Position numbers and translations under genes: made by a program
The notes under the pieces: generated by a model
Database searches by the model: none
Told to the model about the DNA's origin: nothing
The model's input: only the letters and a program-made list of their open reading frames with translations
Shown here: piece by piece, positions 7,180 through 47,165 of the stretch
How positions within the stretch are numbered: position 1 is the first letter of the stretch
Layout: the number at the start of each line of letters is the position of its first letter
Origin: Trypanosoma brucei
Lineage: Eukaryota
NCBI GenBank assembly: GCA_000002445.1
Contig: CH464491.1
Span: forward strand, 2,944,001-3,008,000
Direction: 5' to 3'
Length of the DNA: 64,000 nt

Positions 7180-7184
7180 TTGTG

Positions 7185-29328: not shown

Positions 29329-31677
29329 ATGTCTGACGGGGTGCAGTATTCAAAAGACGTTTTTCCTGCTCCTAAGTGGCACAGGGCGGAGGGTGATAGC
29401 GCTGCTAATAGGGAATGTGTGCAGCGTGTTGTTCCTTTTAAAGCTGTTTCTGCGGGGGAGAACGTTGATTCACTGACATGTGTTGGTGGTAGGCTTCCCT
29501 CTGTGGATTCTCTTTCCTCTCCTTTGGAGGGTGGGGAAATTGTGGGTAATGTTGATGATAAGTTAAAGCACTCTCATGTTTCTGTCGTTGATGATCGTCA
29601 ACCAGTGAGTTCTGTGACCGGAAGGAGAGGGAATAGTTTCGAACTTCCTGGCAGATTAATTGGTCGCAGGGATGGTAGTGGTGGTGTCGTTGGCAGTGGG
29701 AGGTTTGAAATTACTCCGTTGAAGCCATCGTCAACGATATCTGGAATCACACCTCGTCATTTTGACGTGCTGCATCCTTTGGAAGATAGCGCTGACCGTG
29801 GTAAGCATGATTTTGTAGGTGGTGTGTTGAATGCGGCGAATGATGCCGGAGGTGCGAAGGCCATTGAGGAGTTGGAGTTTATATCGGATATGTTGTTTAT
29901 GTGGATGGGTGTTGATAAAACGAAATATTTTGCGTATGATAACGCATGTTGTCGTTATGAAATGAACTCTGGATATGGTACCGTTCGTCAGAGGCAGGCT
30001 TTTTCTGCTTTTCAAGAGTGTGGTTGTCTGGCACATCAAATAGATGACGCTTTGAGGGGCGGTACGTCGGAAAGGTCGTTCTTGCAGCAAAGCCTTCGTG
30101 GAGCTGTTCGTCGGCACCTCTCACAGTACCACACTCTTGTAGCGTCTTTTCGCGGGCGGCAGACGCCGCCAATGGCATTTGGTGATTTGGTGGTTGCGTT
30201 CAAAAGAGTACAACCGAAACTTCGGGTTTTGCACACAATGCTGAAGGAAACAGAAAACGTGAAGGGTGGCGAACTGGCGTCTAAACTTCAACGTCTGGTA
30301 CAGCAGGGGTCAAGAAGACTATGCGCACTGCTGTCTGATGTGTATATGGAGGCTGTGAGTCCTCTCCTTCATATGACGGTGTCAAGCATTATAAAAGGTG
30401 ATGTCTCAGATCCATTTAACGAGTTCTTTGTGAAGTCCGATCCCAGAGTTGAAGATACGTCAGACACGTTTTGGTCTTCTAAGTTTTCCCTTCTGCCAGA
30501 TATGTTACCAACGACGGTGTCGTATTCGCTGGCGGAGCGGATCAGGCTTGTGGCTAAGAACGTCAGTTTCATTCGAAACTGTTGCAGGTGCAAGCAATGG
30601 CACATGGACCCCTCCATTGTTGCAGCCGCTCAAAGTGCAACATTTGATACGCTGGACAGTGTGGTTCGTGATGCCATGAGGTTCACCAATACTGCAGTGC
30701 TCCGACTGATTAGGGAGGAGTTCCACCTTGACAATGTTCTGCGTATGGTAAATGCCTTTCTTCTAGTCGGAAACGGAGACTTTTACGAGGTCCTTATACA
30801 CAAATTGGATCCCGTGCTTGGTAGGATGAGTCACATGGTGCAAACTTCACTGGTGCGCGACCACATGCAAAGCGCCTTGCTTGACATAACTCCGCACACG
30901 AAAAATTTGGATACGGATCTTTTCACGATGCTCCACTGCGAGATAGTTAAGGACGATAAAATCATTGGTTGGGATGCATTTGTTGTCACAATGTCGGTGC
31001 CCTCGCCACTCAACAATATCTTCGATGCCAGTGCCATGAAGGTTTACCGGCGCCTGTTTCGCATGATGTTCAAGGTGAAGCGGGCAGAAGTTGCTCTAAA
31101 AAACTCATGGAGGCAGAGCGTTGTTTTAGATAGGATCATAGGAGGGCTGCACAACGCGAAGCGGGAGACAACTGCGTGGCGGGAAGTGGCTGCTGATGCG
31201 CACCTGCTTGGTCTGCAGCTAAACCACTTTGTGAACAACTTATGGTCTTACCTTGTCGCAGAGGTTTCAACCGTTTCATGGGATCTGCTTATGCGAGCTC
31301 TTCGCCAGTGCAACTCCATGGATGACATCCGCGCAGCGCACATATCCTATCTGCAGTACCTCACCCTTCACTCCCTTTTGCACGGAGACTGTACTTCCAT
31401 TCGGCAAAATATCGAAAGCGTTCTCAGCGTAGTCCGACAATTCGTTGGAGCCCAGGCAGTACTGACTTCACTGCTGGAGCGCGGTCACGGTGACGTGTTT
31501 TCCATTAAGAACGAATACCAGAGGCTGGCTGACGACTTCCAACGTGAGATTTCCTCTCTATTAACCACGCTGGAAGAGCAGCATTTGCAGTTCGACTTTC
31601 TTAACTTCCTTCTTCTGCGTCTCAACTTCAACCACTTCTATCACGATAATGCATTCGGCGACAACACAGAGTTTTGA
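29329..31677 (+). CDS. Gamma-tubulin complex component (GCP/Spc97-Spc98 family)
   Basis: The start was moved to the ATG at 29329 (MSDGVQYS...), after a T-rich tract. The upstream track ATG at 29278 translates poly-T. Grip-motif-like segments are FLLVGNGDFYEVLIHKLDPVL, LFRMMFKVKRAEVALKNSW, HFVNNLWSYLVAEVSTVSWDLL and MDDIRAAHISYLQYLTLHSLLHGD. Confidence 0.65.
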   Translation: MSDGVQYSKDVFPAPKWHRAEGDSAANRECVQRVVPFKAVSAGENVDSLTCVGGRLPSVDSLSSPLEGGEIVGNVDDKLKHSHVSVVDDRQPVSSVTGRRGNSFELPGRLIGRRDGSGGVVGSGRFEITPLKPSSTISGITPRHFDVLHPLEDSADRGKHDFVGGVLNAANDAGGAKAIEELEFISDMLFMWMGVDKTKYFAYDNACCRYEMNSGYGTVRQRQAFSAFQECGCLAHQIDDALRGGTSERSFLQQSLRGAVRRHLSQYHTLVASFRGRQTPPMAFGDLVVAFKRVQPKLRVLHTMLKETENVKGGELASKLQRLVQQGSRRLCALLSDVYMEAVSPLLHMTVSSIIKGDVSDPFNEFFVKSDPRVEDTSDTFWSSKFSLLPDMLPTTVSYSLAERIRLVAKNVSFIRNCCRCKQWHMDPSIVAAAQSATFDTLDSVVRDAMRFTNTAVLRLIREEFHLDNVLRMVNAFLLVGNGDFYEVLIHKLDPVLGRMSHMVQTSLVRDHMQSALLDITPHTKNLDTDLFTMLHCEIVKDDKIIGWDAFVVTMSVPSPLNNIFDASAMKVYRRLFRMMFKVKRAEVALKNSWRQSVVLDRIIGGLHNAKRETTAWREVAADAHLLGLQLNHFVNNLWSYLVAEVSTVSWDLLMRALRQCNSMDDIRAAHISYLQYLTLHSLLHGDCTSIRQNIESVLSVVRQFVGAQAVLTSLLERGHGDVFSIKNEYQRLADDFQREISSLLTTLEEQHLQFDFLNFLLLRLNFNHFYHDNAFGDNTEF

Positions 31678-32429
31678 GAGTGAGGAGTATGCATACCTTT
31701 ATGCATGCATGAAGTAGGCTGAGCTTTTTCATCTCTATTTCTACCCTTGACCTGGTTCTCCAGTTCCAGAGTGATAACAGTCGTAACGAGGCTGGTAGAG
31801 GTGGAACACGAACCGACGTATAGATGTTTACCCGTTCCCACATAACGGGGGCGTTCGGTTGCTCAAGTTTAACATATTTCCTTTTTGCTGTCGTTTTATT
31901 TCCTTTCTTGGTAAGGAACTTTCGAGAGTGTGATGTCGGGAAAAGAGGGATAGAAAGGAAGTTTTTCTTGGGTGACACGCGCATGCTGTGTACGCGTAAC
32001 TGCGCGTGTTGTGAAGCAAATTCTGTTGAACGTTCCGGTACGTACTACTGAAGGAGTGGTTGGGAGCGGTGTGTTTGTTCGTCTGTGCGTTGTTGCCGCT
32101 GACCGCTGTTTTACACCGGCATAGAAGGTATGCATACATATTTCATAAAAGCAGATTAAACGCGATCACCTTCGTATGCGGGTGGCAAGAGTGTGTAGGT
32201 GCAATCCAAGGGGGAGTAGAGATGACGACAGCTGATAAGGAAAACTGCGTGTGTGCTGTTGTGGACCGAAGCGCTTCGGTCTGCATCATGGATGAATGCG
32301 TTGCCTCCTCTTTTTCTCCTAGATCTGTCGCGCACTACAGGAAGCGTAGGAAGAGGAAGCAATAGTTTTTTTTTTTTTTTGCATATTTGCGTAGGTAACA
32401 GCAACCCAGAAAGTGATTTAGGGTTATGA

Positions 32430-34121
32430 ATGCAATCAACGTCTGCAGGTAGCGACTTCGCACTTGGCACATCGGTTCCGCCGTTCTTGGAGCTCTTGCC
32501 ACTACTTGTCATCTTGCTGATATTCGCGTTTGGTATCCAGGCTGTTGTTCTTCTTTCAAAGTCGCGGTGGGAGGATCAGCAGGGAAACGGTGAGGGTGAG
32601 GTGGTGCGCACCATCACAGGGACGTTTTACCGCAGTAGCTTTTACCATCGTTTCTATGAAAACTCGAAGTGCGAGCACACAGGTATTCTCTTGAGCTCTA
32701 CCTTGCTTAATATCGCAAGACATGTGCAGAACGGCTCGAAACAGCTGGTGTGCACAACGGTTTACCCACGCGATGCTCGACACGGACCCGACAAGCAGTC
32801 CGTGCTATTCCTTTTTGACCCACTGAAAAGTGATTCGGAGTTGGTACTGGGACCCTCTTCCTTTGAGTCTACCGGCTTCTTTTACGCAGGTGTTGCGCTC
32901 CGGGGGTTTAATTTACGTGATCAGCTCCCCCGTTACGCTGTGGCAAGCCTCCCAACGTGTGGCATGTGGATTACGGTGGATGACGGCATTGAGGTCACGT
33001 ACCAGCGATGCCGGAAAGATGAAGACTTTGCACAGAGGGTGGATCATGTATTGTATCTGAAAGCGCGTGGGCCCGGCGCCGCGCAAAAACTCGAACGATT
33101 TGTTGATCAGTCGCTGAAGGAGTACATATCAAACCTTCCCCGCACGGCCGGTGGCCAGCAGTATCACTTCCAGTTGACCGGCGGGGAGAAGACATTACAA
33201 TTTACGAAGCAACTACTCTCCACATCAAAGACATTCGACACGTTGTTTTTCTCACAAAAAGATGAATTGCTGTCGCGCCTCGAGCAGTTTGTCGAAAAAA
33301 AGGGGCGCTTCGCTATCGAGGGGTTTCCTTACAAATTGGGTTTCCTTGTGTACGGGGAGTCAGGTGTGGGTAAAACCGCTCTGGTCTCCGCCATCGCTGC
33401 TTACACGGGTCGACATGTTATTTCGCTACATCTTCCTATCATTTCAACGGACCAGCAGCTTTCCGACATCTTTCTTACCCGAACGCTGCGTTGCACTAAA
33501 GATTTTCAACCTTTTGTATACGAACTTGATGATGTTATTTTTCTGTTTGAGGACGTCGACGCAAGCGATGACCTTGTTCGCTGCCGGCAGGCGTCAACGG
33601 GACAAGGACCAGAGGGGGGAAACCAGTGTGGATATGGTTTGGGAGGCGTTGCCTCACAACAGGCGCGATGTGATGGTAGGTACAAAGTCCCGGGTCTCTC
33701 GGGGTTTCTTAACGTTCTTGATGGCGTGGTTGACATGCACTCCCTAATTGTAGTAATGACAACGCGAGACCCCAATGACATTGATTCAGCCCTCCTTCGA
33801 CCTGGGCGTTTTGGATACAAGATTCACATGGAGAATATGCGAACGGACGAGCTAGTGGGGCTGGTAGGACTACACTTTGGAACTGAACAACGACACACGG
33901 CAGAGGTGGAGGGGAAAACAGAAGGGGAACGCAGTGTGAATGCGGGAAGAAACTTATACCGCCTCAGCAGGGCCGACGAGAAGACGGTTCGTGAGTATAT
34001 TGTGTCTCGGTGTGGAGAGGAATTTTCAATTAATGGTAGAGTTGCAGAGGCTATGTGTATGGGTAGTGACACCTTGGATGAATTCTTGGCGCGACTTGCT
34101 AAATGGTACGGTGAAAAGTAA
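32430..34121 (+). CDS. BCS1-like mitochondrial AAA ATPase
   Basis: An N-terminal transmembrane segment (LLPLLVILLIFAFGIQAVVLL) is present. The Walker A motif is FLVYGESGVGKTALVSAIAAYTG and the Walker B motif is VIFLFEDVD. The second region of homology/arginine finger is VVMTTRDPNDIDSALLRPGRFGYKIHM. The architecture is BCS1_N + AAA. Confidence 0.75.
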   Translation: MQSTSAGSDFALGTSVPPFLELLPLLVILLIFAFGIQAVVLLSKSRWEDQQGNGEGEVVRTITGTFYRSSFYHRFYENSKCEHTGILLSSTLLNIARHVQNGSKQLVCTTVYPRDARHGPDKQSVLFLFDPLKSDSELVLGPSSFESTGFFYAGVALRGFNLRDQLPRYAVASLPTCGMWITVDDGIEVTYQRCRKDEDFAQRVDHVLYLKARGPGAAQKLERFVDQSLKEYISNLPRTAGGQQYHFQLTGGEKTLQFTKQLLSTSKTFDTLFFSQKDELLSRLEQFVEKKGRFAIEGFPYKLGFLVYGESGVGKTALVSAIAAYTGRHVISLHLPIISTDQQLSDIFLTRTLRCTKDFQPFVYELDDVIFLFEDVDASDDLVRCRQASTGQGPEGGNQCGYGLGGVASQQARCDGRYKVPGLSGFLNVLDGVVDMHSLIVVMTTRDPNDIDSALLRPGRFGYKIHMENMRTDELVGLVGLHFGTEQRHTAEVEGKTEGERSVNAGRNLYRLSRADEKTVREYIVSRCGEEFSINGRVAEAMCMGSDTLDEFLARLAKWYGEK

Positions 34122-34364
34122 CGCTATTCGTTGTTATGCAGAACAACTGTGTTTTCGTTTCATTTAAGGTCGATGTTAAAGCACGGGTTTTAACCACGTA
34201 CATTTGGAGGGCTGCATCACTTGCACATCAGATGCAACTTTTTGTCGTGCGGGGCCCCCCCTTACGCGATATTTGGGTCCCTCTACCTGCTTCTTCTTCA
34301 TTTGGTTTTTGGCGTAGCAAGCTGAGTAGCGCAAGGCTAACCGCTCTATTTTCTGCCCACAATC

Positions 34365-35321
34365 ATGGCTGTCGCTTACGAAGGACAACTGACGGGTCAC
34401 CGTGGCTGGGTTACATCCCTCGCCTGCCCACAAACGCCTGAAACCGCAACGAAGGTGGTATCCACATCCCGGGACAAGACCCTTCTTTCATGGGGCCCTA
34501 ACCCCGACCGGCACAGCAGTGAGTGCAGCTATGGCCTTCCCGACAGGCGTCTGGAGGGGCACAGCGCATTTGTGTCTGACGTTGCCCTTTCCAACAACGG
34601 GAATTTCGCTGTGTCTGCGTCATGGGACCATTCCCTGCGCTTGTGGAACCTGCAGAACGGACAATGCCAATACAAGTTTCTTGGCCACACAAAGGACGTA
34701 CTCTCCGTGGCCTTCTCTCCCGACAACCGACAGATTGTCTCCGGTGGTCGTGACAACGCTCTGCGCGTATGGAATGTCAAGGGCGAATGCATGCACACTC
34801 TGAGCCGCGGTGCTCACACCGACTGGGTGAGTTGTGTCCGCTTCTCCCCGTCTTTGGATGCCCCTGTCATCGTCTCTGGTGGTTGGGACAACCTGGTGAA
34901 GGTCTGGGACCTCGCTACCGGGCGACTTGTCACGGACCTTAAGGGACATACAAACTATGTCACATCTGTGACCGTTTCCCCTGACGGTTCCCTCTGTGCA
35001 TCTTCCGACAAGGACGGCGTCGCTCGTCTGTGGGACCTGACTAAGGGTGAGGCCCTTTCTGAGATGGCCGCTGGTGCGCCTATCAACCAAATCTGCTTCT
35101 CCCCCAACCGTTATTGGATGTGTGCGGCTACCGAAAAGGGCATCCGCATCTTTGACCTGGAGAACAAGGACATCATCGTCGAGCTTGCGCCGGAGCATCA
35201 GGGCAGCAAAAAGATTGTCCCGGAGTGCGTTTCCATCGCGTGGTCTGCGGATGGTAGCACCCTGTACTCTGGGTACACGGACAATGTCATCCGTGTCTGG
35301 GGTGTATCGGAGAACGCGTGA
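34365..35321 (+). CDS. RACK1: RACK1 / activated protein kinase C receptor homologue (WD40; TRACK/LACK family), copy 1
   Basis: 318 aa beginning MAVAYEGQLTGHRGWVTSLACPQTPE..., with seven WD repeats (GH...WD). Confidence 0.92.
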   Translation: MAVAYEGQLTGHRGWVTSLACPQTPETATKVVSTSRDKTLLSWGPNPDRHSSECSYGLPDRRLEGHSAFVSDVALSNNGNFAVSASWDHSLRLWNLQNGQCQYKFLGHTKDVLSVAFSPDNRQIVSGGRDNALRVWNVKGECMHTLSRGAHTDWVSCVRFSPSLDAPVIVSGGWDNLVKVWDLATGRLVTDLKGHTNYVTSVTVSPDGSLCASSDKDGVARLWDLTKGEALSEMAAGAPINQICFSPNRYWMCAATEKGIRIFDLENKDIIVELAPEHQGSKKIVPECVSIAWSADGSTLYSGYTDNVIRVWGVSENA

Positions 35322-35669
35322 GGCAGCTAAAGGGCATGTGGTATAAGTGGTTTAATTTTGTGCTTTCTGCGCCTTTTCCCGGGCGTGCATACAGTTGCAC
35401 GTAACCTAGAAGGGTGTCGCTTGCAATTTTCATTTGGTCAGCAGTTGGAGCTGTCTTTATTTTTTCTTTTTCACCTAACATTTAATGGCCGCGCTTTTGG
35501 GTACGGAGGTGCGCAGCGTGTAACGTTGGATTTTGTATGCAACTTTTTATCGTGCGGGGCCCCCCCTTACGCGATATTTGGGTCCCTCTACCTGCTTCTT
35601 CTTCATTTGGTTTTTGGCGTAGCAAGCTGAGTAGCGCAAGGCTAACCGCTCTATTTTCTGCTCACAATC

Positions 35670-36626
35670 ATGGCTGTCGCTTACGAAGGACAACTGACGG
35701 GTCACCGTGGCTGGGTTACATCCCTCGCCTGCCCACAAACGCCTGAAACCGCAACGAAGGTGGTATCCACATCCCGGGACAAGACCCTTCTTTCATGGGG
35801 CCCTAACCCCGACCGGCACAGCAGTGAGTGCAGCTATGGCCTTCCCGACAGGCGTCTGGAGGGGCACAGCGCATTTGTGTCTGACGTTGCCCTTTCCAAC
35901 AACGGGAATTTCGCTGTGTCTGCGTCATGGGACCATTCCCTGCGCTTGTGGAACCTGCAGAACGGACAATGCCAATACAAGTTTCTTGGCCACACAAAGG
36001 ACGTACTCTCCGTGGCCTTCTCTCCCGACAACCGACAGATTGTCTCCGGTGGTCGTGACAACGCTCTGCGCGTATGGAATGTCAAGGGCGAATGCATGCA
36101 CACTCTGAGCCGCGGTGCTCACACCGACTGGGTGAGTTGTGTCCGCTTCTCCCCGTCTTTGGATGCCCCTGTCATCGTCTCTGGTGGTTGGGACAACCTG
36201 GTGAAGGTCTGGGACCTCGCTACCGGGCGACTTGTCACGGACCTTAAGGGACATACAAACTATGTCACATCTGTGACCGTTTCCCCTGACGGTTCCCTCT
36301 GTGCATCTTCCGACAAGGACGGCGTCGCTCGTCTGTGGGACCTGACTAAGGGTGAGGCCCTTTCTGAGATGGCCGCTGGTGCGCCTATCAACCAAATCTG
36401 CTTCTCCCCCAACCGTTATTGGATGTGTGCGGCTACCGAAAAGGGCATCCGCATCTTTGACCTGGAGAACAAGGACATCATCGTCGAGCTTGCGCCGGAG
36501 CATCAGGGCAGCAAGAAGATTGTCCCGGAGTGCGTTTCCATCGCGTGGTCTGCGGATGGTAGCACCCTGTACTCTGGGTACACGGACAATGTCATCCGTG
36601 TCTGGGGTGTATCGGAGAACGCGTGA
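35670..36626 (+). CDS. RACK1: RACK1 homologue, copy 2 (protein identical to copy 1)
   Basis: Identical 318-aa translation; one synonymous difference was seen. Confidence 0.92.
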   Translation: MAVAYEGQLTGHRGWVTSLACPQTPETATKVVSTSRDKTLLSWGPNPDRHSSECSYGLPDRRLEGHSAFVSDVALSNNGNFAVSASWDHSLRLWNLQNGQCQYKFLGHTKDVLSVAFSPDNRQIVSGGRDNALRVWNVKGECMHTLSRGAHTDWVSCVRFSPSLDAPVIVSGGWDNLVKVWDLATGRLVTDLKGHTNYVTSVTVSPDGSLCASSDKDGVARLWDLTKGEALSEMAAGAPINQICFSPNRYWMCAATEKGIRIFDLENKDIIVELAPEHQGSKKIVPECVSIAWSADGSTLYSGYTDNVIRVWGVSENA

Positions 36627-36997
36627 GGCAGCTAAAGGGCATGTGGTATAAGTGGTTTAATTTTGTGCTTTCTGCGCCTTTTCCCGGGCGTGCATACAGT
36701 TGCACGTAACCTAGAAGGGTGTCGCTTGCAATTTTCATTTGATCAGCAGTTGGAGCTGTCTTTTTTTTTTCTTTTTCACCTAACATTTAATGGCCACGTG
36801 TGTAACTTCCATTTTCAGGTGTGCCGCGGTGGGGTAGTGCTACTCTGCACGTGGCCTGTCCCGGTGTTTGTCTTTCGCCGTGCGATATATATATATATTT
36901 TTGGGCGTATGTATATGTACATTTGTTCCTGCTTTTGTTTTGTGTGCTGGGCGGAGGTTAGTAGGACAAGAGTGCTGTACGAATTAGATTCGCTAAA

Positions 36998-38650
36998 ATG
37001 CTGCGCCGCGGTGCGACCCTGTTGACAAGTGCCGCGGCTGGTGGATCGTCTGTGGGCAACCCGCCTGCCGTGGCTCCCGGTGTCGTTCGTTCCCTTTATC
37101 GCATGCTTCTCAGGGAAGTTAGGAAAATTGACGAATCACCCCTGTCCAAGACACTTTTCCCGCTTACAGTAGATCTCCAACACTTGACTAAGAGCCACGG
37201 ACCGCTGTATTTTCCCAATGGTCAAAAGTATATGGATATCTTGCGTGAAGTCTTTCATGACGCGGCAACACCACAAAAAGTAAATCTGGCCTTCGAGACA
37301 CTGACACGGCTTAGGTCTCATAACGAGCGAGTAACTTCAAGACTTTCCGTCTTTGAGAAAGACCGAATGCATCTCATCAACACGATGGAAGCGTCACAAC
37401 CCGACAAGGGCTTATACCGTGTTGAGCGCGCCCCATACAATGTTAACGCTACTTCGTACAGACTGCCTGTGGGAGGTGGTCCCTCCTCGTTACACTCAAA
37501 ACTGAAAATTCGGCAAGGTTATGCGGTCGAACTCGAGGAAGGCGTGGCTTTAGTTGCTCATCCGCTCTCTTCGACACACATGGACCGACGTGTGATACTA
37601 ATTTATGAAAAGGGTCCTCATTTCACCACGGGTGTCGTTCTCGACATGTTGTTTACGTACCCGCTTTCGCACGGCAACCCCATGTTTCCAGAGGTGTTTT
37701 GGGGGCACAAGGTTTATGACGGTGGCGTGTCGCAGATCAACTTCACGATGCCTCCCACCGCGCACATCAGCATCTTGCACACACTGGAACCGCCAACAGA
37801 GCCAGAGTCACCTCAGTATCTTGCCTGGCTCAAATGGAAGGATGTTAAGTCAAAATCTAGGAACACAGAGACGACAGCGGAGCATCCTCGGCTCCTATGT
37901 AAGCCCTTGATTCGGGGCGGTGTATTGGATGACGGGACGGTCGAGCCTACGCTGTACCTTTCTAAGGTGGAGGCGCTGCCTTACTTGGCCCAGCTCGTGC
38001 CGGGAAAGCCGCGCTCTTCCGCTAGGGTGTACTGGGGTAATATGCGATGGCCAACCCGCCAACTGGAGGCGGAGGTGGCGAATGGACACTGGATTCCAGT
38101 CAAGCTTTCGCCAACGTTTTTTGGACCATTTCCGTTGATGGCGGAGTCGGGGAGGGCGGACATGTTTCCAACGGTCGCGGAACTGAAGGGCATGAAGGAA
38201 ACCCGTGAGCGACGGTACGGCGTGGATGTTTCGTTGCCGCAGGTTTTCCCTCCGGATCGAATCCTTCGCCGCCGCGAGTGTCTGTGGGACCAAATTATGT
38301 ACTGTCTTGGCGGTGAATACCGTTCCTTGGTTGGTTGTTTCAACCCATTTCTAGAAAGCACGCAGGGCGTGCTACCGTACGACTTGCCGTCCCCACCGTC
38401 CGTCGTTGGTTGTGGGTTGAGTGATACCGAAGAAAGTGTTATGATGATGGAGGACTTAATTGATGACGCGGTTGAAAGGGGTGCTGGGGAAGAGGCGGAG
38501 AGTGGAAATTACGAGGAGGATCTTCCTTTCAGTGCGCAGATGCTCGGGGTGACCGAGGTGCAAGGCGAAGAACAGCTCGCCAAGGGTGAGAGGCCTCCCG
38601 GATCTGAAAAGGAATCAGACAATGAAGACGACGATAAAAAAAAGAGCTAA
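36998..38650 (+). CDS. DUF179 (YqgE/AlgH-like) domain protein with mitochondrial-type presequence and LYR-like motif
   Basis: The N-terminus is MLRRGATLLTSAAAGG... and an LYR-like motif SLYRMLLREVRKI follows. The central region GYAVELEEGVALVAHPLSSTHMDRRVILIYEKGPHFTTGVVLDMLF...KVYDGGVSQ matches the COG1678/DUF179 signature (G..LiA.P.l.d..F.rsVIll.eH...G..G.vlNrp...GGPv). The C-terminal tail is acidic. Confidence 0.5.
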   Translation: MLRRGATLLTSAAAGGSSVGNPPAVAPGVVRSLYRMLLREVRKIDESPLSKTLFPLTVDLQHLTKSHGPLYFPNGQKYMDILREVFHDAATPQKVNLAFETLTRLRSHNERVTSRLSVFEKDRMHLINTMEASQPDKGLYRVERAPYNVNATSYRLPVGGGPSSLHSKLKIRQGYAVELEEGVALVAHPLSSTHMDRRVILIYEKGPHFTTGVVLDMLFTYPLSHGNPMFPEVFWGHKVYDGGVSQINFTMPPTAHISILHTLEPPTEPESPQYLAWLKWKDVKSKSRNTETTAEHPRLLCKPLIRGGVLDDGTVEPTLYLSKVEALPYLAQLVPGKPRSSARVYWGNMRWPTRQLEAEVANGHWIPVKLSPTFFGPFPLMAESGRADMFPTVAELKGMKETRERRYGVDVSLPQVFPPDRILRRRECLWDQIMYCLGGEYRSLVGCFNPFLESTQGVLPYDLPSPPSVVGCGLSDTEESVMMMEDLIDDAVERGAGEEAESGNYEEDLPFSAQMLGVTEVQGEEQLAKGERPPGSEKESDNEDDDKKKS

Positions 38651-39221
38651 TGTCAGGCTTTGTGTGGACACGTCTAGTGACGGCAGCGCCGCGTGTCGTG
38701 CACGCCTCAATATTCACGTCAATATATGCGGAAAACGGTGATATGTTGGAGGAGGTTTTTTGTTTCAAGTGAATAAAGTTTCGTTTAAGTAGCAGTTTGA
38801 TAGGGTGAAGACTGAGGATTGTATACGGAGGAGCCCTTGGGTTCGGTATATATATTCGGGCATATGCTAATGGTATTCAACTGTTTGTTCATAAGCATGA
38901 TATGGACCTGTTTCACTGGGTATAAAACAACCCGATTCCGCTTGCTAATTTAAACATCATTTGCCGTTGTTATTGTTGGCATTTCTTGATACCAACGTGG
39001 CACGGTGTGGCGTCAAACGAACCTAATGCGCGCATTTTTTATCTTCTTAGCTCTTCTCGCGGCTACCATTGCCCCGCTAGCTCTTTTACCATTATTATTA
39101 TTATTGGGGCCCTTTCCTTTCCACCTGAGCGTCCTTCACACGACCCTGTGGCTGAAACGGAAAAGCAGTTATTGGAGTGGTCTATTGTGTCCCCCCCTTT
39201 CCCTCCTGGCCTGTCAGTGCG

Positions 39222-39515
39222 ATGGCTGAAAAAATAGCAAGCGACAAAATCACCCTACATCTCGCGGCAAAGACTGGCATAACAGAGGCCCTGGGGAACA
39301 TGGAATGTGATCCAGCGGAGACACTCGGCAAAGTATTATCCCGCATAAAGAAGAAGCTGAAGCGTCCAGCGCTGTATTTGTTTCTTATGCGCGGTTCTGA
39401 GGGATTCATTCCAACCCCGGACCAGACAATAGGGTCACTGCTACACGCCTACGCGGAATCAAGTGATCAGCGCCACCTGTCTTTCGCTGTGTCGACGGCG
39501 ATATTTCACGGATAA
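39222..39515 (+). CDS. ATG12: ATG12-like ubiquitin-fold protein (97 aa) ending in Gly immediately before the stop
   Basis: The track ORF starts at 39177; the likely start is ATG 39222 (MAEKIASDKITLHLAAKTG...). The C-terminal half LYLFLMRGSEGFIPTPDQTIGSLLHAYAESSDQRHLSFAVSTAIFHG* parallels ATG12 (LFiYvnqsFaPsPDqevgtLyecF...L.l.Yc...AwG*). The terminal glycine is exposed. Confidence 0.6.
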   Translation: MAEKIASDKITLHLAAKTGITEALGNMECDPAETLGKVLSRIKKKLKRPALYLFLMRGSEGFIPTPDQTIGSLLHAYAESSDQRHLSFAVSTAIFHG

Positions 39516-39801
39516 TGTCATCGTTTTTCTGCCGTCGTTATCAATTGCTTGTTTTGCGTTGGCTGACAACGCTTGGCCACTCCCTCTTTCACGCCCCGTT
39601 GTTAGCTTAGACTCTTTGTGCGAAAGCGTTTCTCCCTGACACTTGTCGTTCGTGCTGTTGGGCCCGCCTGTTGGCCATAACAATTTGTGTCGACTCAAAG
39701 AATCAACAAAAAGTAAACCGGGCGAAACAACACAATAGGGCCTAAGCAGACGGTTTCGGAAAAATTCAAAGTAGCAACCGTTAGCCAAGGGGAGCGAAAC
39801 G

Positions 39802-40620
39802 ATGCAAACGTCGCCGGTCCGTCTGGGGGCGCTCATCCGGTACGTATCGTTTCGGCACGCCCCTAAGTTCCGACAGCCACGCCCCGAGGAAGTTATCGGC
39901 CTACCGGTCAAGGAAACGCCGCCTCACTGCGTTCCTGCCTTTGTCCTTCCCGACTTTATCAACGAGGCGGAGGAGCGCGCACTCTTGGCGCTTACGGAGC
40001 CGTGGTTCTCGCGACTTCCGTGCAACGAGGGGCATATGGACGCACTGATACACCATTACAAGGAATTTTATCGATCCTACAAGGGGCTGATGGAGGGTGA
40101 GGGGGCGTGTGGGAGTTGTGAAGACGGATGCCGACATGTGCGTAGGGCTCTCGAGAGGTGTTGGAGCGCGGCAAGTGGATATGTTCCCGCCACGCCATTG
40201 GATGACAGAGTGCATTTCCTGCGGTTGAGCGAATGTGGGTTCATAAGGGCCCATGCCGATGACACCCGCAACTCAAGCGGCATCATTGCCGGGCTGTGCC
40301 TTGGCTCCGCAAGGGTGATGACGCTAACGCACCCCGACCACGCGGGGCAGCGAGTGGAACTCATGCTTGCTCCCCGTGCGTTTTACGTGCTTATGGGGGC
40401 GGCGAGATACAAATGGGAGCACAGCGTTGACTGGATAAGGGATGACGATGAGCACATCGAACGAGTTCGTGGCAGGGTGCCACCGGGCGAGAGATCACTA
40501 GTATTTGACGGAAAGGAAACGGAGTTTAGGCGAGGAGAGCGAACAGCTATTATTTTTCGAGGAGTTTCGCCCCTGGAGTTACTCAAACACAAGACGTTGG
40601 AAAGAAAGGGCCACACATGA
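39802..40620 (+). CDS. AlkB-like 2-oxoglutarate/Fe(II)-dependent dioxygenase
   Basis: The HxD motif is present in RAHADD. Other matching segments are IIAGLCLGSARVM, the second His in YKWEHSV, and the terminal RTAIIFRGV (the R-x-S-x-T-F-R-like 2OG-binding motif). Confidence 0.6.
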   Translation: MQTSPVRLGALIRYVSFRHAPKFRQPRPEEVIGLPVKETPPHCVPAFVLPDFINEAEERALLALTEPWFSRLPCNEGHMDALIHHYKEFYRSYKGLMEGEGACGSCEDGCRHVRRALERCWSAASGYVPATPLDDRVHFLRLSECGFIRAHADDTRNSSGIIAGLCLGSARVMTLTHPDHAGQRVELMLAPRAFYVLMGAARYKWEHSVDWIRDDDEHIERVRGRVPPGERSLVFDGKETEFRRGERTAIIFRGVSPLELLKHKTLERKGHT

Positions 40621-41039
40621 AGGGCATGATCCATCTGCACGTAAGCCGCGGCGTTTACCCAAATTGAGCTGTCATTCGCTTTCTCGGTTGGCGTGAATCA
40701 CGCGATAAATGTGTGAAGGGGGCTGAAGGATATTTTAGCAGCCCCCTGGGCGCGGTTGAGTGCGTATCGATAAAAGGGAGGGGGGCTGGGGGGCGGTCCA
40801 CGGCATGGGTGAGTGGAAGGGGACGTTTTGCCTCAGCTGCAGAGTGATACAATGTGCGTGGCCGCCACGTTACCCCCGCCTTTTTTTGGGGGGGAGCTTG
40901 CGAAAGGAATGGTCGATCTTTTCATATTTTTTATCGTATCAATGTTATTTTTTATCATTCTTCGTCTAGTCCTACTTCTCATGTGGTTAGACAAGTTATC
41001 GTTAGTAATTTGTTGGAAAAGGTGTAAGGTTTTTAAGTG

Positions 41040-43500
41040 TTATGACAGAATATGAGGAGAAAGAGCGGAAAACTAGTCTAGCAGCGCTTAGGAGGTTTGT
41101 GAAACATTGTGGTCCCACGCGATTTACATTCATTACCCGCATACCGTTGAGTAGAAATACAAATCAGGTAAACGGAACTTTACTACTGGAAAATGGAGAT
41201 CTGACTGTATGCGCTCAAGATATGAAAGCAAATATCGCGGATATAAGAGAGGATATAGCGTCTTTTAGTGTCCCTCAGCATCAAGATTTTATAAGAGCTT
41301 TTGAAGAAGCAAAAAATATGCTCAAAAATGAATTGGCAGCATTACAAGAACATAAATCAATATTAATGGTGCAATACGAAATGGCTCGTCCATAGTTGGA
41401 AGACGAACATTTAAGGATTTAACAAGCGGCAGTGAACCACTCAGCAGAAATGCAAGATGTTATACAAAATATGAAAAATCAAATGAACCGGATGCAGGTT
41501 GAAAACAATCAAATACTCAACTAATACGGTATGTTGCAAGGGATGTTAAACCAAAAGGAAACTGAAATACAGTATTGGAAATCTATGGTAAACTCACACG
41601 GGTCAACGAACAAAAAGGAGGAAGTGGACAGCTCATCTATGAAAAAGAAAGTCTATGATTGGAAAAGAGAAGAAAATGAAAAAAAAAAATTGTCACCATG
41701 TAATTCCTTGGATGATATTTTACGAAAGAACAGATGAATACACAACTCCAGGATAGGTTGGGTATTTTTCGGCAGTGCCGACGAAGAGTTGCAGGCGGAG
41801 AGGATAAAAACGAGGAGAGAAAATACACCTTCGAAGGATTCGTGGATTACGTGATGGAGACGTCTCCAGTACACATGTCGGCAGCATTTGAGGAAGTGTG
41901 CCCAATGAAAGTAAGACATGAAAGTTACTACTATAAGACTTGGAATATGTTCGTCAAACGGGTTCATACCATACCAGACGTGGGCCTTGCGGAGGCTTTA
42001 TTCCAACTGAGAAAAAAAAAAAATATATATATATATATACGGAACTGCGTATCCTACAAACGGCATCGATGTTTCCTCGAGTCAAAATCCAAGATATTCG
42101 TAACGGCCCAGAGTCATCACAAAATTCAAAAGACCAATTCTGGCAACTGGGGGAGAAACTAAATAAGGTAAGAGCTCCTTCCCCGGAAAAAGCCAAATGC
42201 TATGTGGCCGCATTGGACATTACAGTACGACATGTTATGTGAAGGAAACAGCGGTATGTAAATCAAAAAACGGGGTTCAACCCTCAGAGCAATAAATTGA
42301 GGGATCGTTAATGCCTTGGGGTCCAACCACATAAGAAAAAATTGAGTGGAAACATACCAAGAGAGAAGAAAGGAAAGAACACAAACACGCTTTACATCAA
42401 GGCGAAGAAATAAGGGCAGAAAGTTTGAAAAGGGTGAAAATAAAAGGATACTGGCTCAGATGGTCCGATCTCATCAGAAAAGAACTTCCTCCGTTAAAAA
42501 CCTCGGTAAACGGGGTAACGGTGATCCCGGCACCATCTCACGATCCGATCGTGGTGGCATTGGAAACAGAGGCCAACAGGATCGCCTTAAGTGCATGGAC
42601 AAAAACAACATGGGAGCAAAGGGTGTCCATACTACGGAGACTTTGCGAGTTTGCGGAAAAGAACAACATAGATTCGAGAAGGGAACGTCCCTTTATTCGT
42701 CCTAAGTTTACAATTGGCAAAAAGCAGCGCCGTCCAGTATAAAAGGACGTTATTAAGTTTATTGGCCGCTGTAAGAACACCGGCGCAGATGTTTCTGGCA
42801 TGCCTACAAAAATCAGCGACCAAGGTGCTGATAAAGCAGGCTAGCCCCATGGAGAGATGGGAACTCGACTAGATAAGCGATATGATGACTACGAATCGGG
42901 ATCGAGTGGCGTTGCGCCTGGCGCGGATTACGGCAAGTTGATGGGTAGAAATTGCCCTCCATCAAAAAGAAAATTTTATACCGCGTCCCACCGACAGAGA
43001 GGCTTCTCATACTAGATTGGGGAGCCCTTCCGAAAACGTTCAAGATCAACCTAAACATGGCGGCACGATACGTAGTAATAGGAGGAACAGACGCAAAAAT
43101 GGTTCGGGAACTAACGACAACATTGGAGGAAAACGAAAAAATTACCAACCTGTCCACAAAAGATTTGGAAAAAATACTCCGTCCCTATGGAATGACAGCA
43201 CACTCCATAAAAAGAGGGGCACTAGCCCATGCACCGACAGTGGTCTTCGAGCACGACCTCGACCCGCGTTTTTTAACCCAACTGGGAAAAACAGCGGATC
43301 CTTTGGAATTTCCACGCAGCACGGCAAGATATCTCGGGCATTGTGTAGCACTAATAAACAAATCAGAGCAATTGACTCAGCACGTGCAGAGGAGTTATAG
43401 AGATGGACTTCGGCCCGATGGGCGCTACCAACTGCATGTGGAGAAAGAGATCAAACGCTATTTCAGGGACATAGCATTCTGAGACGCACCCATCACACGA
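41040..43500 (+). other. Purine/A-rich degenerate region with fragmented coding-like ORFs; candidate decayed retroelement (DIRE/ingi-like remnant) or old pseudogene
   Basis: Several 100-180 aa ORFs lie in different + frames (41042, 41734, 42425, 42952) with protein-like but unrecognised composition. The + strand has strong A bias, with A12 and (AT)8 at 42012-42039. No intact RT or endonuclease motif was found. Confidence 0.25.
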
Positions 43501-46500
43501 GGGTGGCTACGGTGGAAGAAAACAAAATACCACTACGAAAAATATGCGTCAACACATTATCCTTGCACCGAATCAAAAACCGAATGAATAGCAAGGCGAA
43601 ACATCGTTTCGAGGAGGCGCGGGAGATCATGAGACAACCCACAAACCTGCAGGAAAGTGAAAGAGGATCTCAGCTAACAGTTTCTACCAAGGATGCCAGA
43701 ATCATGAAGAACGCAGGCATCGTACAAACGGTATCGGCAGCAACCCCCTTGGTTTGAGGTCTGGGAAGAGCTGTCCTCTACAAAGTGCCTTTCCACCTCG
43801 TTTACTTCCCCAACTTTTGCGACATCGGGAATTTAAACAGCCAACTGCGACCCCCGATATTCCGATTTCGACCGAATGCGGGTATCCTTTGATTCCTAAA
43901 CCCTGTAGCTGGCGAGGCCAACCTCCTTGACGTAGTGCTTGGGTTATGACGAATGGTTGCTGCACTCCTTTGTCACGTTCAACTTCTCCGACTCTCCACA
44001 TGGAAACTTTCTAACAACCCCGCCACTGACAGGATGATTCCGCCTGCCGCATCCGTGTCAGCCGCTTCGCCCTATAGGGTTAACCTTGTCCACTGCGCTT
44101 TGCGGGGCTTGCTGGGAGGGTGTCTGGGAGTGTCATCGCTGACTCTCCATTTTGTAACCACTTCGGTTGTTTTTTTCCCCTCTCCTTGTATCCGCACTTG
44201 CTGCGCGGATGGTCAGCCACACGTTTGTTCACGCTGTGTGGCACAGGGACCGCGCCTCTCATTAGATGCTCCTCGAAGTTTCCAGTTGGCAAGCGTCCCG
44301 CAACAAGTCCCCTCCCGCGTGTCAGATTCGCCATCCTTGCAACGGCAATACTTCCTATCTGACAGACTTTTCTCGCGTCTGCCTGTTTTGTGTCTTCCTA
44401 TTCCTCCACGGGCTCCCTCCTTAACTTTCTTCGCCAGTTTTCAACCCTATTCCCCCTTTTCAAATGGGCACGGGGTAAGTCCTCTCTCGAAAATGCGCGG
44501 TTGCAAGCAAAGCGCCTTCGAGCCTCACCACCACAGGTTATGGGTTCGCTTTGCCCTCTCCTTTTCTCTGTCTAGGAGTTTGTGGCCTTCGATCCCACCC
44601 ATTGCCTCGAGGCGATGCGAGTAACTATTTTTCATATCCTCATCACCATCTGGGGTCCCGAACAGGGTAATTGAATATTGCCGCAGGGTGCTGACTTCCC
44701 ACTTTTAGCCAAATGCACACCCCCATTTCGCAATGTTCGCGCGGCGAACCTACAAAATTTTCCCTTTCTCTTAGTCGCGATCTACGCTTTAGCGCCGTTG
44801 TCAACCCCCCTTCCCCGAAGAAACCGTGGGCTCAGGTATGCACACGCTAAGATTGTTGTCTTTTGTCCTGTTTTCCATTCCCCGCAGCAAGGAGTTCACG
44901 TTTTCCAGCGTTTCGTCCGCCACTGCCCCAGGGGAAGATGCGGTTGGGCACCGTACAAACCACCAGATTGCAGTGTCCTAGCCCCAGTTTCAGTAAGTGG
45001 AAACGGTGTGCCTAATCCGCTGGTTGGCGCCACTAAGCTTTGCTTTTGCCGTTTCTGCCTTCGAAAGCACTCCTATTTACACTCATTCCCGCATTTGTTT
45101 GTTTGGGGGGGGGGGAGGGAAGGGAAGTGCCACGCAGTGTCACCAAGAGTTTTTCAAGGTTTTGGCATAGACATGAACAAAGATGGCATCCCTCACCCGT
45201 GGTGGGCGGTTCTTCTTTGCAACGAACCGAATACCGACGGGAAGGTCACTCGTGCGTGTATCTGCCTAGCCTTGAGCAAACCCCCATACACAGCACATTC
45301 CTCGTCACACCCCCGCTCAGTGGGACCGGCGCGCTAGCAGCGTCAGTCTCTTACGTGCTGCGCTGTCGAATTCTAACTCCCCCGCCCGCCTCCACACGAG
45401 TGTATCAGCCTGCAATGCGATATGCGTTGCCGCTGGCTTCGTACACGGTGAAAATAACTTCTCTGTGTGGGCATACGCGGCTTTCCCTATGAGCCGCCGA
45501 TGCAATTCAGCGGTGATGATGTGTGGGCGGCACGGTCTGCGCATGCTCATTTTCGTTGGAAAACACAGTCGCACGCCACGTGCTTCGTTTGGCGTCACTT
45601 ATTGGACGTGCCCGCCCAGCCACCGTCACTCTAAACTGCCCACAAACGGCGAAGATGTATTAGGTTGCCACGATTGCCGCTGCTTTCGCATCGTTTGAGA
45701 AAACGAACGCGCGTCCTGCGTCGCCGTCGAGGAACCAACCCCATCCTTTCCACCTACCGGCAAAAAGAGGCACGCCAGTAAAACGGAAAATGAGATGCCA
45801 AATTACAGAGGTGCGCTGCCTGGCGCGACGGAGTCGCTGGCATCAGTGCATGATAATCGTTTCTGACCGGCACGTGGGGTGCTTAGTAGACCCGCTCCGT
45901 CACTGCGGAAGCACCTCGAGAAAGATTTTGTAGCCACCTGGGGCTGCAAGTCCCCGTACTGACACACGTGAACAAAATCAGAGACCGCGGTTTGGCATCG
46001 CCGTGGCAAATCACGTTGTGCACATAGCATGACCTGTTACCTACGCCTCCATAGCGCTCGGGCCTGGCACCTTGGCTCGCGGAACTGCGACAAGCCCGGT
46101 CCCTCTGGAATCAAATTTCATTCAAGGATGACACCGCCGCTGGAGTGTGTGTAGAAACAAGCGTCCACATGCGGCCCGCGTGCACCCAACTTTACCCTCG
46201 ACACCTAGGAGATCGGAAACGCCAACGAGAACTAAATTAACGTTATTGGGGGAAAAAAAAACACAACCGATGTCGCGTCCTACGGTCCTGATGTGGGGAA
46301 GGAAAAGGGTGACCCCCTGACCGCGGAAAAAATCGTTGGTGAGTGTGCGGTGCATACTTAGGCGTAGCGTATCCCGTACACCTGCGGATGTTTCTCCATC
46401 ACTCGACGTTTGACGCGTTAAAAGTAAAGACAAAACAGTCATACCTTTGGGACGAAAGTTAGGTGCGCTTAAGAAAAAAAAGGGGGGAGGGGCGACCGTG

Positions 46501-46657
46501 AACCCTTATCGTTGAAAGAACGAAAGACGCATGAATCGGCTGGGCAAAGATTTGTAGGAGTGTGCCACTGTTATCAATGCCCCTCAGGGGTTCGAGCATC
46601 ACTTGTCAAATCGGTCTGAACAGCGCGAGGCCGGCAAAATTTTGGTTGCCGCCACGC

Positions 46658-47016
46658 GTCGGAGAGGGGTGGGGAGTATGTGGCGCTAGTACCCGCCGTC
46701 AGCATCGCGTGGGCTTATTTTCTTCTGGGTCTTCTTCTGAGCACTTACCCTGTATGAAAGGCTGGAGTGGCAGAAAAGACGTGTCCTTGATTTATGCGTA
46801 CCACACCTGCCTCTTACATTTTCTGTTGTTGCATACGTGTGTGCGGGAAGACGTGGTGACTACTCCGGTCTTCTCGCCGAGCACCTCATGTGCCTTGCTC
46901 GAGTGCTGAGTCTACGCGGCGCGACGGGTGGGCAGTAGGGGGGGGGGCTTGTACATAGAAAAAAAAAACTAGAGCCACCGGATGCTCTTTGTGCGACCCT
47001 GGTGAAAGTGAGAAAG
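46658..47016 (+). repeat. Direct repeat copy A (~358 bp), 150 bp beyond the 3' end of the minus-strand sialidase-family gene
   Basis: Near-identical to 52250-52607. It contains G10 and A10 homopolymers (gggcagtaggggggggggcttgtacatagaaaaaaaaaactagagccacc). Confidence 0.9.
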
Positions 47017-47165
47017 AGATAAAGTAAAACCAGTAACCGGAATTATCCGGTGAAGCAGTCGGCCGTGTGTCACCGTCATTCCTAACATGTGACCCCTTAG
47101 AGAGACTGACTCGAGAACCAGAGCGATTTCTATTTGCATTCTGAGTCCGTACTGTCCTGCAGTTT

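What the first reader, a model, noticed from the sequence alone, without database searches (positions are those of the whole stretch)
39222..39515. Short ATG12-like ubiquitin-fold gene whose product ends in Gly with no C-terminal extension
The product is only 97 aa and is easily missed by gene finders. The C-terminal half closely parallels ATG12, and the ORF ends ...AIFHG-stop, so the conjugating glycine is already exposed. That contrasts with ATG12 forms that need proteolytic processing beyond the Gly. The track's longer ORF (from 39177) would add an N-terminal extension that is unlikely to be used.
Basis: inference. Interest (0 to 1): 0.5.

Follow-up and report, generated by a model that had tools for sequence, protein, structure and literature searches.

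The report
Trypanosome ATG12 ubiquitin-like autophagy gene
This is a real, conserved 97-codon trypanosome gene for a minimal ATG12-type ubiquitin-like autophagy modifier; public genome records already name it Apg12, its exposed C-terminal glycine is normal for ATG12, and the interest is that the trypanosome autophagy papers I could search call ATG12 missing or undemonstrated.

Summary
Window 39222..39515 (+) is an ATG-initiated ORF of 97 codons ending ...AIFHG-TAA.

It is a genuine gene:
- 97-aa orthologues with the same start and end exist in T. cruzi, T. grayi and T. melophagium.
- Against T. cruzi, synonymous sites are saturated (pS 0.80) while pN is 0.16, and the flanks do not align.
- Gene order is conserved as far as Leishmania.

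It belongs to the ATG12 family:
- Pfam APG12 scores above the gathering threshold.
- A family profile hits human, yeast and plant ATG12 in the PDB but not ATG8.
- The AF2 model (pLDDT 81) is closest to human and yeast ATG12.
- The F-x-P-x-P-D-Q motif is conserved, and 47 of 48 homologues end exactly in Gly.

Ending in Gly without processing is the canonical ATG12 state. It contrasts only with the ATG8-like Leishmania "ATG12" (LmjF22.1300).

The identical protein is already deposited as "Ubiquitin-like autophagy protein Apg12, putative" (T. equiperdum), so the gene is already known at the annotation level. However, reviews from 2018 to 2024 say ATG12 is lost or undemonstrated in T. brucei and T. 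cruzi, and they propose ATG8.3 as its stand-in. Leishmania also keeps an uncharacterised orthologue of this gene, separate from its published ATG12. Conjugation to ATG5 is inferred, not shown.

The parts
39222..39515 (+). Coding sequence of the ATG12-family ubiquitin-like protein (97 codons plus TAA).
   Evidence: ORF. Pfam APG12 above threshold. Orthologues of 97 aa. Purifying selection and unalignable flanks. The identical protein is deposited as Apg12, putative, in T. equiperdum.
39405..39425 (+). Codons 62-68, F-I-P-T-P-D-Q: the ATG12 signature F-x-P-x-P-[DEQ]-[QE]. F62 aligns with yeast Atg12 F154 and human F108.
   Evidence: F62, P64 and P66 are invariant across the kinetoplastid family plus human, yeast and Arabidopsis ATG12. 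The motif is present in 47 of 48 homologues. Yeast F154 is needed for Atg8 lipidation (PMC9455075, PMC13277686).
39381..39383 (+). Codon 54 (Phe). It aligns with yeast Atg12 Y149, the residue reported as needed for Atg10-dependent conjugate formation.
   Evidence: Pairwise HMMER alignment to 3w1s_C. Invariant in alignments A2 and A3. The role of Y149 is taken from the review PMC9455075.
39504..39515 (+). C-terminal tail F95-H96-G97 followed directly by TAA. Gly97 is the predicted conjugation residue, exposed without processing.
   Evidence: Sequence read directly. 47 of 48 homologues end in [F/Y/I]-x-G with nothing after the Gly.
39110..39129 (+). Candidate trans-splicing signal 1: polypyrimidine tract 39110-39122, then the first AG at 39128-39129. 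Inferred only.
   Evidence: Sequence scan. No RNA data were available.
39190..39217 (+). Candidate trans-splicing signal 2: polypyrimidine tract 39190-39207, then AG at 39216-39217, 4 nt before the ATG. Inferred only.
   Evidence: Sequence scan. With either acceptor, 39222 is the first AUG of the mRNA.
39153..39155 (+). In-frame TGA upstream of the start. It bounds the reading frame, and there is no in-frame ATG between it and 39222.
   Evidence: Upstream translation.

Best explanation
The ORF is the T. brucei-group orthologue of ATG12, the ubiquitin-like modifier of the autophagy conjugation system. It is a minimal form: the ubiquitin-fold core only, about 9 residues before strand 1, and none of the long disordered N-terminal region found in yeast and human ATG12. 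By inference from the family, the free carboxylate of Gly97 is adenylated and thioesterified by the E1-like ATG7. It is then passed to the E2-like ATG10 and joined by an isopeptide bond to a lysine of ATG5. The ATG12-ATG5 (and ATG16) complex then acts as the E3 that promotes ATG8-phosphatidylethanolamine formation on the growing autophagosome membrane. Shown here: a real, selected gene; ATG12-family membership by profile, motif and fold; a terminal Gly conserved across trypanosomatids and related protists; orthology with an uncharacterised Leishmania gene that is distinct from the published LmATG12. Inferred, not shown: activation by ATG7/ATG10, ATG5 as the target, and E3 function.
For: - Pfam APG12 (PF04110) scores 25.1 bits against a gathering score of 22.8, with no ATG8 hit even at E<=1. 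11 of 15 diverse family members hit APG12 individually.
- The family profile hits PDB human ATG12 at 6e-5, yeast Atg12 at 1.5e-4 and Arabidopsis ATG12b at 1.3e-3. The best ATG8 (LGG-1) reaches only 0.66.
- F62, P64, P66, L73, L86 and G97 are invariant with canonical ATG12. F54 and F62 align with yeast Y149 and F154.
- 47 of 48 homologues end exactly in Gly.
- Against T. cruzi, pN is 0.16 and pS 0.80, and the flanks are unalignable.
- The gene order GCP - AAA - WD40 - DUF179-like - this gene - 2OG oxygenase is shared by the T. brucei group and T. cruzi; L. mexicana shares it except that no AAA gene was called there.
- Partner genes are reported in T. brucei: ATG7 Tb927.10.11180, ATG5 Tb927.6.2430 and ATG3 Tb927.2.1890. 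ATG5 knockdown blocks autophagosome formation (PMC5349162, PMC8161075).
Against: - No biochemical evidence exists for this protein in any species that I could find.
- In Leishmania a different, ATG8-like protein (LmjF22.1300) has been shown to conjugate to ATG5 in vitro, to form a higher-mass species in lysates and to complement yeast atg12 mutants (PMC3355087, PMC3901119). Its syntenic T. brucei counterpart ATG8.3 has been proposed as the functional ATG12 (PMC5349162).
- The tail is aromatic-x-Gly (F-H-G) rather than the canonical aromatic-Gly (W-G or F-G).
- Human W73 and K72, which I recall from memory as the ATG3-binding surface, align with M27 and N26. The ATG12-binding motif of ATG3 is reported as not conserved in kinetoplastids (PMC10903960).
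- Fold scores alone barely separate ATG12 from ATG8.
Confidence: 0.8

Rival explanations
1. It is an ATG12-derived ubiquitin-like modifier that is conjugated through Gly97 but is not the working ATG12 of trypanosomatids. The ATG8-like LmATG12/TbATG8.3 lineage would modify ATG5, and this protein would be redundant or would modify another target.
For: LmjF22.1300 conjugates to LmATG5 in vitro with ATG7, ATG10 and ATP, and complements yeast atg12 mutants (PMC3355087, PMC3901119). Leishmania keeps both genes: L. major Q4Q7Z0 (this family) and Q4QBL7 (published ATG12, PMC10903960). The tail (F-x-G) and the residues aligned with the ATG3-binding surface differ from canonical ATG12.
Against: The published 'kinetoplastid ATG12' groups with ATG8A/B/C. 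It needs an unidentified protease, lacks an AIM12-compatible surface, and its role is called unclear (PMC10903960). YFP-ATG8.3 gave no definitive function (PMC5349162). The protein here carries the canonical ATG12 signature residues, including the equivalents of yeast Y149 and F154, and it is under strong purifying selection across the whole family.
Confidence: 0.25
2. It acts as a non-covalent ATG12, binding ATG5 without conjugation, as in Apicomplexa.
For: Covalent-to-non-covalent transitions are documented in Plasmodium and Toxoplasma (PMC8161075, PMC7600729). One distant family member, P0016, lacks the terminal Gly.
Against: Apicomplexan ATG12 has lost the terminal Gly and ATG10. Here Gly is the last residue in 47 of 48 homologues at down to about 30% identity. 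ATG10 candidates are reported in trypanosomatids (PMC10104450, PMC3355087).
Confidence: 0.05
3. It is an ATG8 paralogue that is conjugated to lipid, not an ATG12.
For: ATG8 and ATG12 share a fold, and GABARAP/ATG8 structures score almost as high as ATG12. Trypanosomatids have expanded ATG8-like families (PMC8161075).
Against: There is no Pfam ATG8 hit at E<=1. Profile E-values to ATG8 chains are 0.66-0.78, against 6e-5 for ATG12. The model has no N-terminal helices before strand 1. Identity to T. brucei ATG8.2 is 10%. The F-x-P-x-P-D-Q motif is the ATG12 one.
Confidence: 0.03
4. It is a chance ORF, or the real gene is on the other strand.
For: The ORF is short. Mechanical antisense ORFs overlap it at 39182..39409 and 39459..39911.
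Against: The codon-position pattern is 21/12/61. Length, start and stop are conserved in four Trypanosoma species, and there are about 48 homologues in all. The antisense ORFs have no Pfam hit.
Confidence: 0.01

Closest known systems
Canonical ATG12 (yeast Atg12 PDB 3w1s_C; human ATG12 PDB 4gdk_A; Arabidopsis ATG12b PDB 1wz3/7eu4; Pfam PF04110)
   Same: - Beta-grasp core.
- The F-x-P-x-P-[DQ]-Q motif, with equivalents of yeast Y149 and F154.
- Conserved Leu in helix 2 and in strand 5.
- Gly as the last translated residue, so no processing is needed.
- Best sequence-profile and structural match.
   Different: - No disordered N-terminal extension: 97 aa in total against 186 (yeast) and 140 (human).
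- Three extra residues (R-G-S) between strands 3 and 4.
- The tail is F-H-G, so the aromatic residue sits at -2 instead of -1.
- The position of human W73 is Met, and that of human Y120 / yeast W166 is Leu.
- Only 20-24% identity.
- Conjugation has not been demonstrated.
Leishmania major 'ATG12' LmjF22.1300 (UniProt Q4QBL7) and its syntenic T. brucei and T. cruzi counterparts ATG8.3 (Tb927.7.3320) and TcATG8.2
   Same: Both are trypanosomatid ubiquitin-like proteins proposed to serve the ATG12 role with ATG5, ATG7 and ATG10.
   Different: - It is a different gene at a different locus. Leishmania has its own orthologue of the window gene (L. major Q4Q7Z0; L. mexicana on FR799581.1, in the same gene order as the window) in addition to LmjF22.1300 (accessions in PMC10903960).
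- LmATG12 clusters with ATG8A/B/C, carries a 58-residue insertion and a 10-residue extension after the Gly, and needs an unidentified protease (PMC3901119, PMC8161075, PMC10903960).
- The window protein matches the ATG12 profile and ends in Gly.
- LmATG12 has biochemical support. This protein has none.
Apicomplexan ATG12 (P. falciparum PF3D7_1470000, T. gondii TGGT1_321300)
   Same: A divergent protist ATG12 working with ATG5.
   Different: The apicomplexan proteins lack the terminal Gly and ATG10, and they bind ATG5 non-covalently (PMC8161075). Here the Gly is conserved almost without exception.
ATG8/GABARAP/LC3 family (including T. brucei ATG8.2, PDB 3w1y)
   Different: No ATG8 profile match. 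No N-terminal helical pair. 10% identity to TbATG8.2. A different signature motif.

Membership tests
ATG12 (Pfam PF04110, APG12) | Significant match to the curated family profile, at or above the gathering score. | tested here: met
   25.1 bits against a cut-off of 22.8, E 2.4e-5, covering profile positions 15-85 of 87. 11 of 15 diverse homologues also match, best E 9.3e-7. A family profile hits three solved ATG12 sequences at E 6e-5 to 1.3e-3.
ATG12 (Pfam PF04110, APG12) | Ubiquitin-like beta-grasp fold closest to solved ATG12 structures. | tested here: met
ATG12 (Pfam PF04110, APG12) | Gly as the last translated residue, with no processing required. | tested here: met
   GGA-TAA at 39510-39515. 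47 of 48 homologues end in Gly. This is the same as yeast, human and Arabidopsis ATG12 (PMC7600729).
ATG12 (Pfam PF04110, APG12) | Conserved hydrophobic residues of the ubiquitin fold needed for conjugation and E3 activity (yeast Y149, F154) within the F-x-P-x-P motif region. | tested here: met
   F54 aligns with Y149 and F62 with F154 / human F108. Both are invariant in the family. The roles are taken from PMC9455075 and PMC13277686.
ATG12 (Pfam PF04110, APG12) | Covalent attachment of the C-terminal Gly to a Lys of ATG5 through ATG7 (E1) and ATG10 (E2). | not testable with these tools
   This needs a western blot or mass spectrometry of tagged protein, or an in vitro reconstitution.
ATG12 (Pfam PF04110, APG12) | ATG5, ATG7 and ATG10 present in the same genome. 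| not tested
   None lies in the 64-kb window, judging from the ORFs and Pfam scans. The literature reports T. brucei ATG5 Tb927.6.2430 and ATG7 Tb927.10.11180 (PMC5349162), and ATG10 candidates in L. major and T. cruzi (PMC3355087, PMC10104450).
ATG8/LC3/GABARAP (Pfam PF02991) | Match to the ATG8 family profile. | tested here: not met
   No ATG8 hit at E<=1. Profile E-values of 0.66-0.78 to LGG-1 chains.
ATG8/LC3/GABARAP (Pfam PF02991) | Two N-terminal alpha-helices preceding the ubiquitin core. | tested here: not met
   The model has only 9 low-confidence residues before strand 1 (residues 10-16), and no helix before residue 35.
Kinetoplastid 'ATG12' of the literature (LmjF22.1300 / TbATG8.3 lineage) | [quoted passage not shown] | tested here: not met
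   Leishmania orthologues of the window gene are separate proteins from the published ATG12s: L. major Q4Q7Z0 against Q4QBL7, L. braziliensis A4HGX5 against A4HCG9, Leptomonas A0A0M9G8Q4 against A0A0N0DZX5 (PMC10903960). They lie in the window's gene order. They have no extension after the Gly. I could not obtain the LmjF22.1300 or ATG8.3 sequences for a direct alignment.

The most novel reading that the evidence does not exclude
Trypanosomatids, and related protists whose sequences turn up in metagenomes and transcriptomes, retain a genuine minimal ATG12. The trypanosome autophagy literature I could search has overlooked it. If this 97-aa protein is the modifier conjugated to ATG5 in vivo in Trypanosoma, or one of two parallel modifiers in Leishmania, the 'missing ATG12' of T. 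brucei and T. cruzi is found. ATG8.3/TcATG8.2 would then need a different role, and the ATG8-derived LmATG12 would be a lineage-specific second ATG5 modifier rather than the orthologue of ATG12.
Probability: 0.45. Interest if true: 0.55.

Novelty: already known. Interest (0 to 1): 0.33.

Why it matters
Autophagy drives differentiation and starvation survival in trypanosomatid parasites, and its conjugation machinery is discussed as a drug target. Reviews state that ATG12 is lost or undemonstrated in T. brucei and T. cruzi (PMC6550534, PMC8161075, PMC10104450). They also state that the role of the published 'kinetoplastid ATG12' is unclear (PMC10903960). A conserved, canonical-looking ATG12 sitting in the genome, auto-annotated in some records and 'hypothetical' in all Leishmania records seen, makes that question directly testable with simple tagging, Gly-mutant and RNAi experiments. 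As a sequence feature it is an ordinary member of a well-known family.

Tried and rejected
- Spurious ORF or antisense gene: rejected on the codon-position pattern, conserved length and lack of any Pfam hit for the antisense ORFs.
- The GTG-initiated 112-aa version: rejected. There is no upstream in-frame ATG, a stop lies at -69, orthologues start at the same Met, and the upstream translation is not conserved in T. cruzi or L. mexicana.
- ATG8 membership: rejected.
- Identity with the published LmATG12/TbATG8.3 lineage: rejected on accessions and synteny (PMC10903960).
- Literature searches for 'TbATG12', 'TcATG12' and 'autophagy protein Apg12' with Trypanosoma returned nothing.
- Two key papers are not held: Williams et al. 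2009 (PMC2642932) and Zhang et al. 2022 (PMC9673942). I therefore cannot exclude that Zhang et al. already listed this protein in their survey of ATG conjugation genes across eukaryotes.
- The afdb50 fold library was unavailable.
- P0008 and P0017, two long multi-repeat proteins from the representative search, matched only profile positions 16-47. I set them aside as unrelated.
- tRNA and Rfam scans of the window found nothing.
No direct alignment or tree against them was made.

Full report
**1. The observation**

Window 39222..39515 on the + strand is an ATG-initiated ORF of 97 codons. It ends ...GCG ATA TTT CAC GGA TAA, that is A-I-F-H-G-stop. The 112-aa ORF from 39177 exists only because the ORF lister accepts GTG starts. 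In that frame a TGA lies at 39153-39155 and there is no ATG before 39222. The only ATG in the 300 nt upstream is out of frame.

Two polypyrimidine tracts followed by AG are plausible trans-splicing acceptors: 39110-39122 with AG at 39128/9, and 39190-39207 with AG at 39216/7. With either one, 39222 is the first AUG of the mRNA. This is inference, as no RNA data were available.

**2. It is a real gene**

A search of about 5.8 billion proteins found 97-aa orthologues in T. b. equiperdum (99% identity), T. grayi, T. melophagium and T. cruzi (74-76%). All have the same start and the same ...IFHG end.

Against the T. cruzi locus the coding sequence shows the following:
- 21, 12 and 61 differences at codon positions 1, 2 and 3;
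- pN 0.16 against a saturated pS of 0.80;
- upstream and downstream intergenic DNA with no significant similarity.

The antisense ORFs that overlap the region have no family match.

The gene order is gamma-tubulin-complex protein, AAA ATPase, WD40 (RACK1-like), DUF179/AlgH-like, this gene, 2OG-Fe(II) oxygenase. It is shared by the window, a T. equiperdum contig and T. cruzi. L. mexicana shares it too, except that no AAA gene was called there. The window is 99.3-99.8% identical to T. equiperdum OVI contig CZPT02000771.1, so it comes from a T. brucei-group genome.

**3. What it is**

*Sequence profiles.* Pfam APG12 (PF04110) matches at 25.1 bits, above the gathering score of 22.8, at E 2.4e-5. 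No ATG8 match appears even at E<=1.

An exhaustive HMMER search of 1.84 billion cluster representatives with the Trypanosoma alignment found 14 hits. Twelve were proteins of about 90-180 aa. Further searches brought the family to 48 members. They include Leptomonas, Porcisia, Novymonas and many Leishmania species, plus unnamed metagenome and transcriptome sequences.

Eleven of 15 diverse members hit APG12 individually. A profile of the family hits PDB human ATG12 (6e-5), yeast Atg12 (1.5e-4) and Arabidopsis ATG12b (1.3e-3). The best ATG8 reaches only 0.66.

*Conserved residues.* In an alignment with the three solved ATG12 sequences, F62, P64, P66, L73, L86 and G97 are invariant. F62 is the equivalent of yeast F154 and human F108. 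F54 aligns with yeast Y149. These two yeast residues are reported as needed for Atg8 lipidation and for Atg10-dependent conjugate formation respectively (PMC9455075, PMC13277686). Of the 48 family members, 47 have F-x-P-x-P-x-[QE], and 47 end exactly in Gly.

**4. How it most likely works**

The mechanism is inferred from family membership:
1. ATG7 activates the carboxylate of Gly97.
2. ATG10 receives the protein as a thioester.
3. It is joined to a lysine of ATG5.
4. The conjugate, with ATG16, acts as the E3 for ATG8-PE formation.

The near-invariance of a terminal Gly over sequences as little as about 30% identical argues strongly for covalent use of that residue. It argues against an apicomplexan-style non-covalent ATG12. 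Partner genes are reported in T. brucei (ATG7 Tb927.10.11180, ATG5 Tb927.6.2430, ATG3 Tb927.2.1890), and ATG5 knockdown blocks autophagosome formation (PMC5349162, PMC8161075). None of the conjugation steps has been shown for this protein.

**5. Comparison with what is known**

Ending in Gly is in fact the canonical state: yeast ends ...AFG, human ...AWG and Arabidopsis ...AWG. ATG12 mRNAs yield mature forms without processing (PMC7600729). The processed form is the Leishmania 'ATG12' LmjF22.1300. That protein clusters with ATG8A/B/C, carries an insertion and a 10-residue extension after the Gly, and needs an unidentified protease (PMC3901119, PMC8161075, PMC10903960).

*A separate gene from the published kinetoplastid ATG12.* Leishmania genomes carry their own orthologue of the window gene in the same gene order. 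It is 115-125 aa, ends EVFSG, and has an Ala/Gly/Ser-rich insertion of about 20-30 residues between helix 1 and strand 3. It is annotated 'conserved hypothetical'. The accessions differ from those of the published ATG12s (PMC10903960):

| Species | This family | Published ATG12 |
|---|---|---|
| L. major | Q4Q7Z0 | Q4QBL7 |
| L. braziliensis | A4HGX5 | A4HCG9 |
| Leptomonas pyrrhocoris | A0A0M9G8Q4 | A0A0N0DZX5 |

*Real differences from canonical ATG12:*
- There is no disordered N-terminal region.
- Three extra residues sit between strands 3 and 4.
- The tail is aromatic-x-Gly rather than aromatic-Gly.
- The positions of human W73 and Y120 hold non-aromatic residues.

**6. Novelty**

The identical protein is already deposited as 'Ubiquitin-like autophagy protein Apg12, putative' (T. 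equiperdum SCU67577.1 / XP_067078874.1). Similar names are used in T. b. equiperdum, T. melophagium and one T. cruzi assembly. As a sequence feature it is therefore already known and an ordinary family member.

The residual interest lies in the literature:
- T. cruzi is said to lack the Atg5-Atg12 complex (PMC6550534).
- ATG12 conservation is said to be undemonstrated in T. brucei (PMC8161075).
- ATG12 is said to appear lost in T. cruzi and T. brucei (PMC10104450).
- ATG8.3 is proposed as the stand-in (PMC5349162, PMC3901119).
- A 2024 analysis of kinetoplastid ATG8/ATG12 proteins considers only the LmjF22.1300 lineage (PMC10903960).
- No searchable paper uses 'TbATG12', 'TcATG12' or the Apg12 product name with Trypanosoma.

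I could not read Zhang et al. 2022 or Williams et al. 2009, so prior recognition in those papers cannot be excluded. The LmATG12-ATG5 biochemistry in Leishmania (PMC3355087) keeps open a rival view: this protein may be redundant, or it may have another target.

**7. Verdict**

The feature is a canonical, minimal ATG12-family gene that is already annotated. Interest is modest. It rises only if experiments show that this protein is the true ATG5 modifier of trypanosomes.

Noticed in passing
window 34365..35321 and 35670..36626 (+): Two tandem genes encode 100% identical 318-aa WD40 proteins. They look like RACK1/TRACK/LACK, but that name comes from memory. The T. equiperdum contig L001 holds only one copy, probably a collapsed assembly. 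The T. cruzi locus L002 shows a second, uncalled copy at about 913-1874.
   Followed up: partly
window 47166..49211 (-): This is the only large minus-strand ORF in the window. It is a trans-sialidase-like protein (BNR_3 plus TS_C domains). That implies a change of transcription direction between about 44.6 and 47 kb. The stretch from about 49 to 58.7 kb has no ORF of 220 aa or more.
   Followed up: no
L003 6001..6369 (L. mexicana) and proteins P0012, P0035-P0048: Leishmaniinae orthologues of the ATG12-like gene carry an Ala/Gly/Ser-rich insertion of about 20-30 residues between helix 1 and strand 3. They end EVFSG. All are annotated 'hypothetical'.
   Followed up: partly
protein P0016 (119 aa, metagenome/transcriptome source not identified): This is the only family member without a terminal Gly (it ends ...TEAFP), and its motif is degenerate (F-M-P-L-P-D-R). 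It may be a non-conjugatable variant or a truncated gene model.
   Followed up: no
proteins P0008 (1532 aa) and P0017 (919 aa): These long proteins matched only profile positions 16-47 of the Trypanosoma ATG12 alignment, 8 and 4 times over respectively. The nature of the repeats is unknown.
   Followed up: no
window 36998..38650 (+) and 39802..40620 (+): Both flanking genes fall just under their Pfam gathering scores. The 550-aa protein matches DUF179/AlgH-like at 26.5 against 27. The 272-aa protein matches 2OG-Fe(II) oxygenase (AlkB-like) at 31.1 against 31.2. Both are syntenic with the ATG12-like gene from Trypanosoma to Leishmania.
   Followed up: partly
cluster look-up for window 39222..39512: The 90%-identity cluster of this protein contains only T. 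equiperdum and T. b. equiperdum accessions, and no T. b. brucei or T. b. gambiense protein record. I could not verify this.
   Followed up: no
window 1..64000: No tRNA gene (ARAGORN) and no Rfam family at the gathering threshold was found anywhere in the window.
   Followed up: yes
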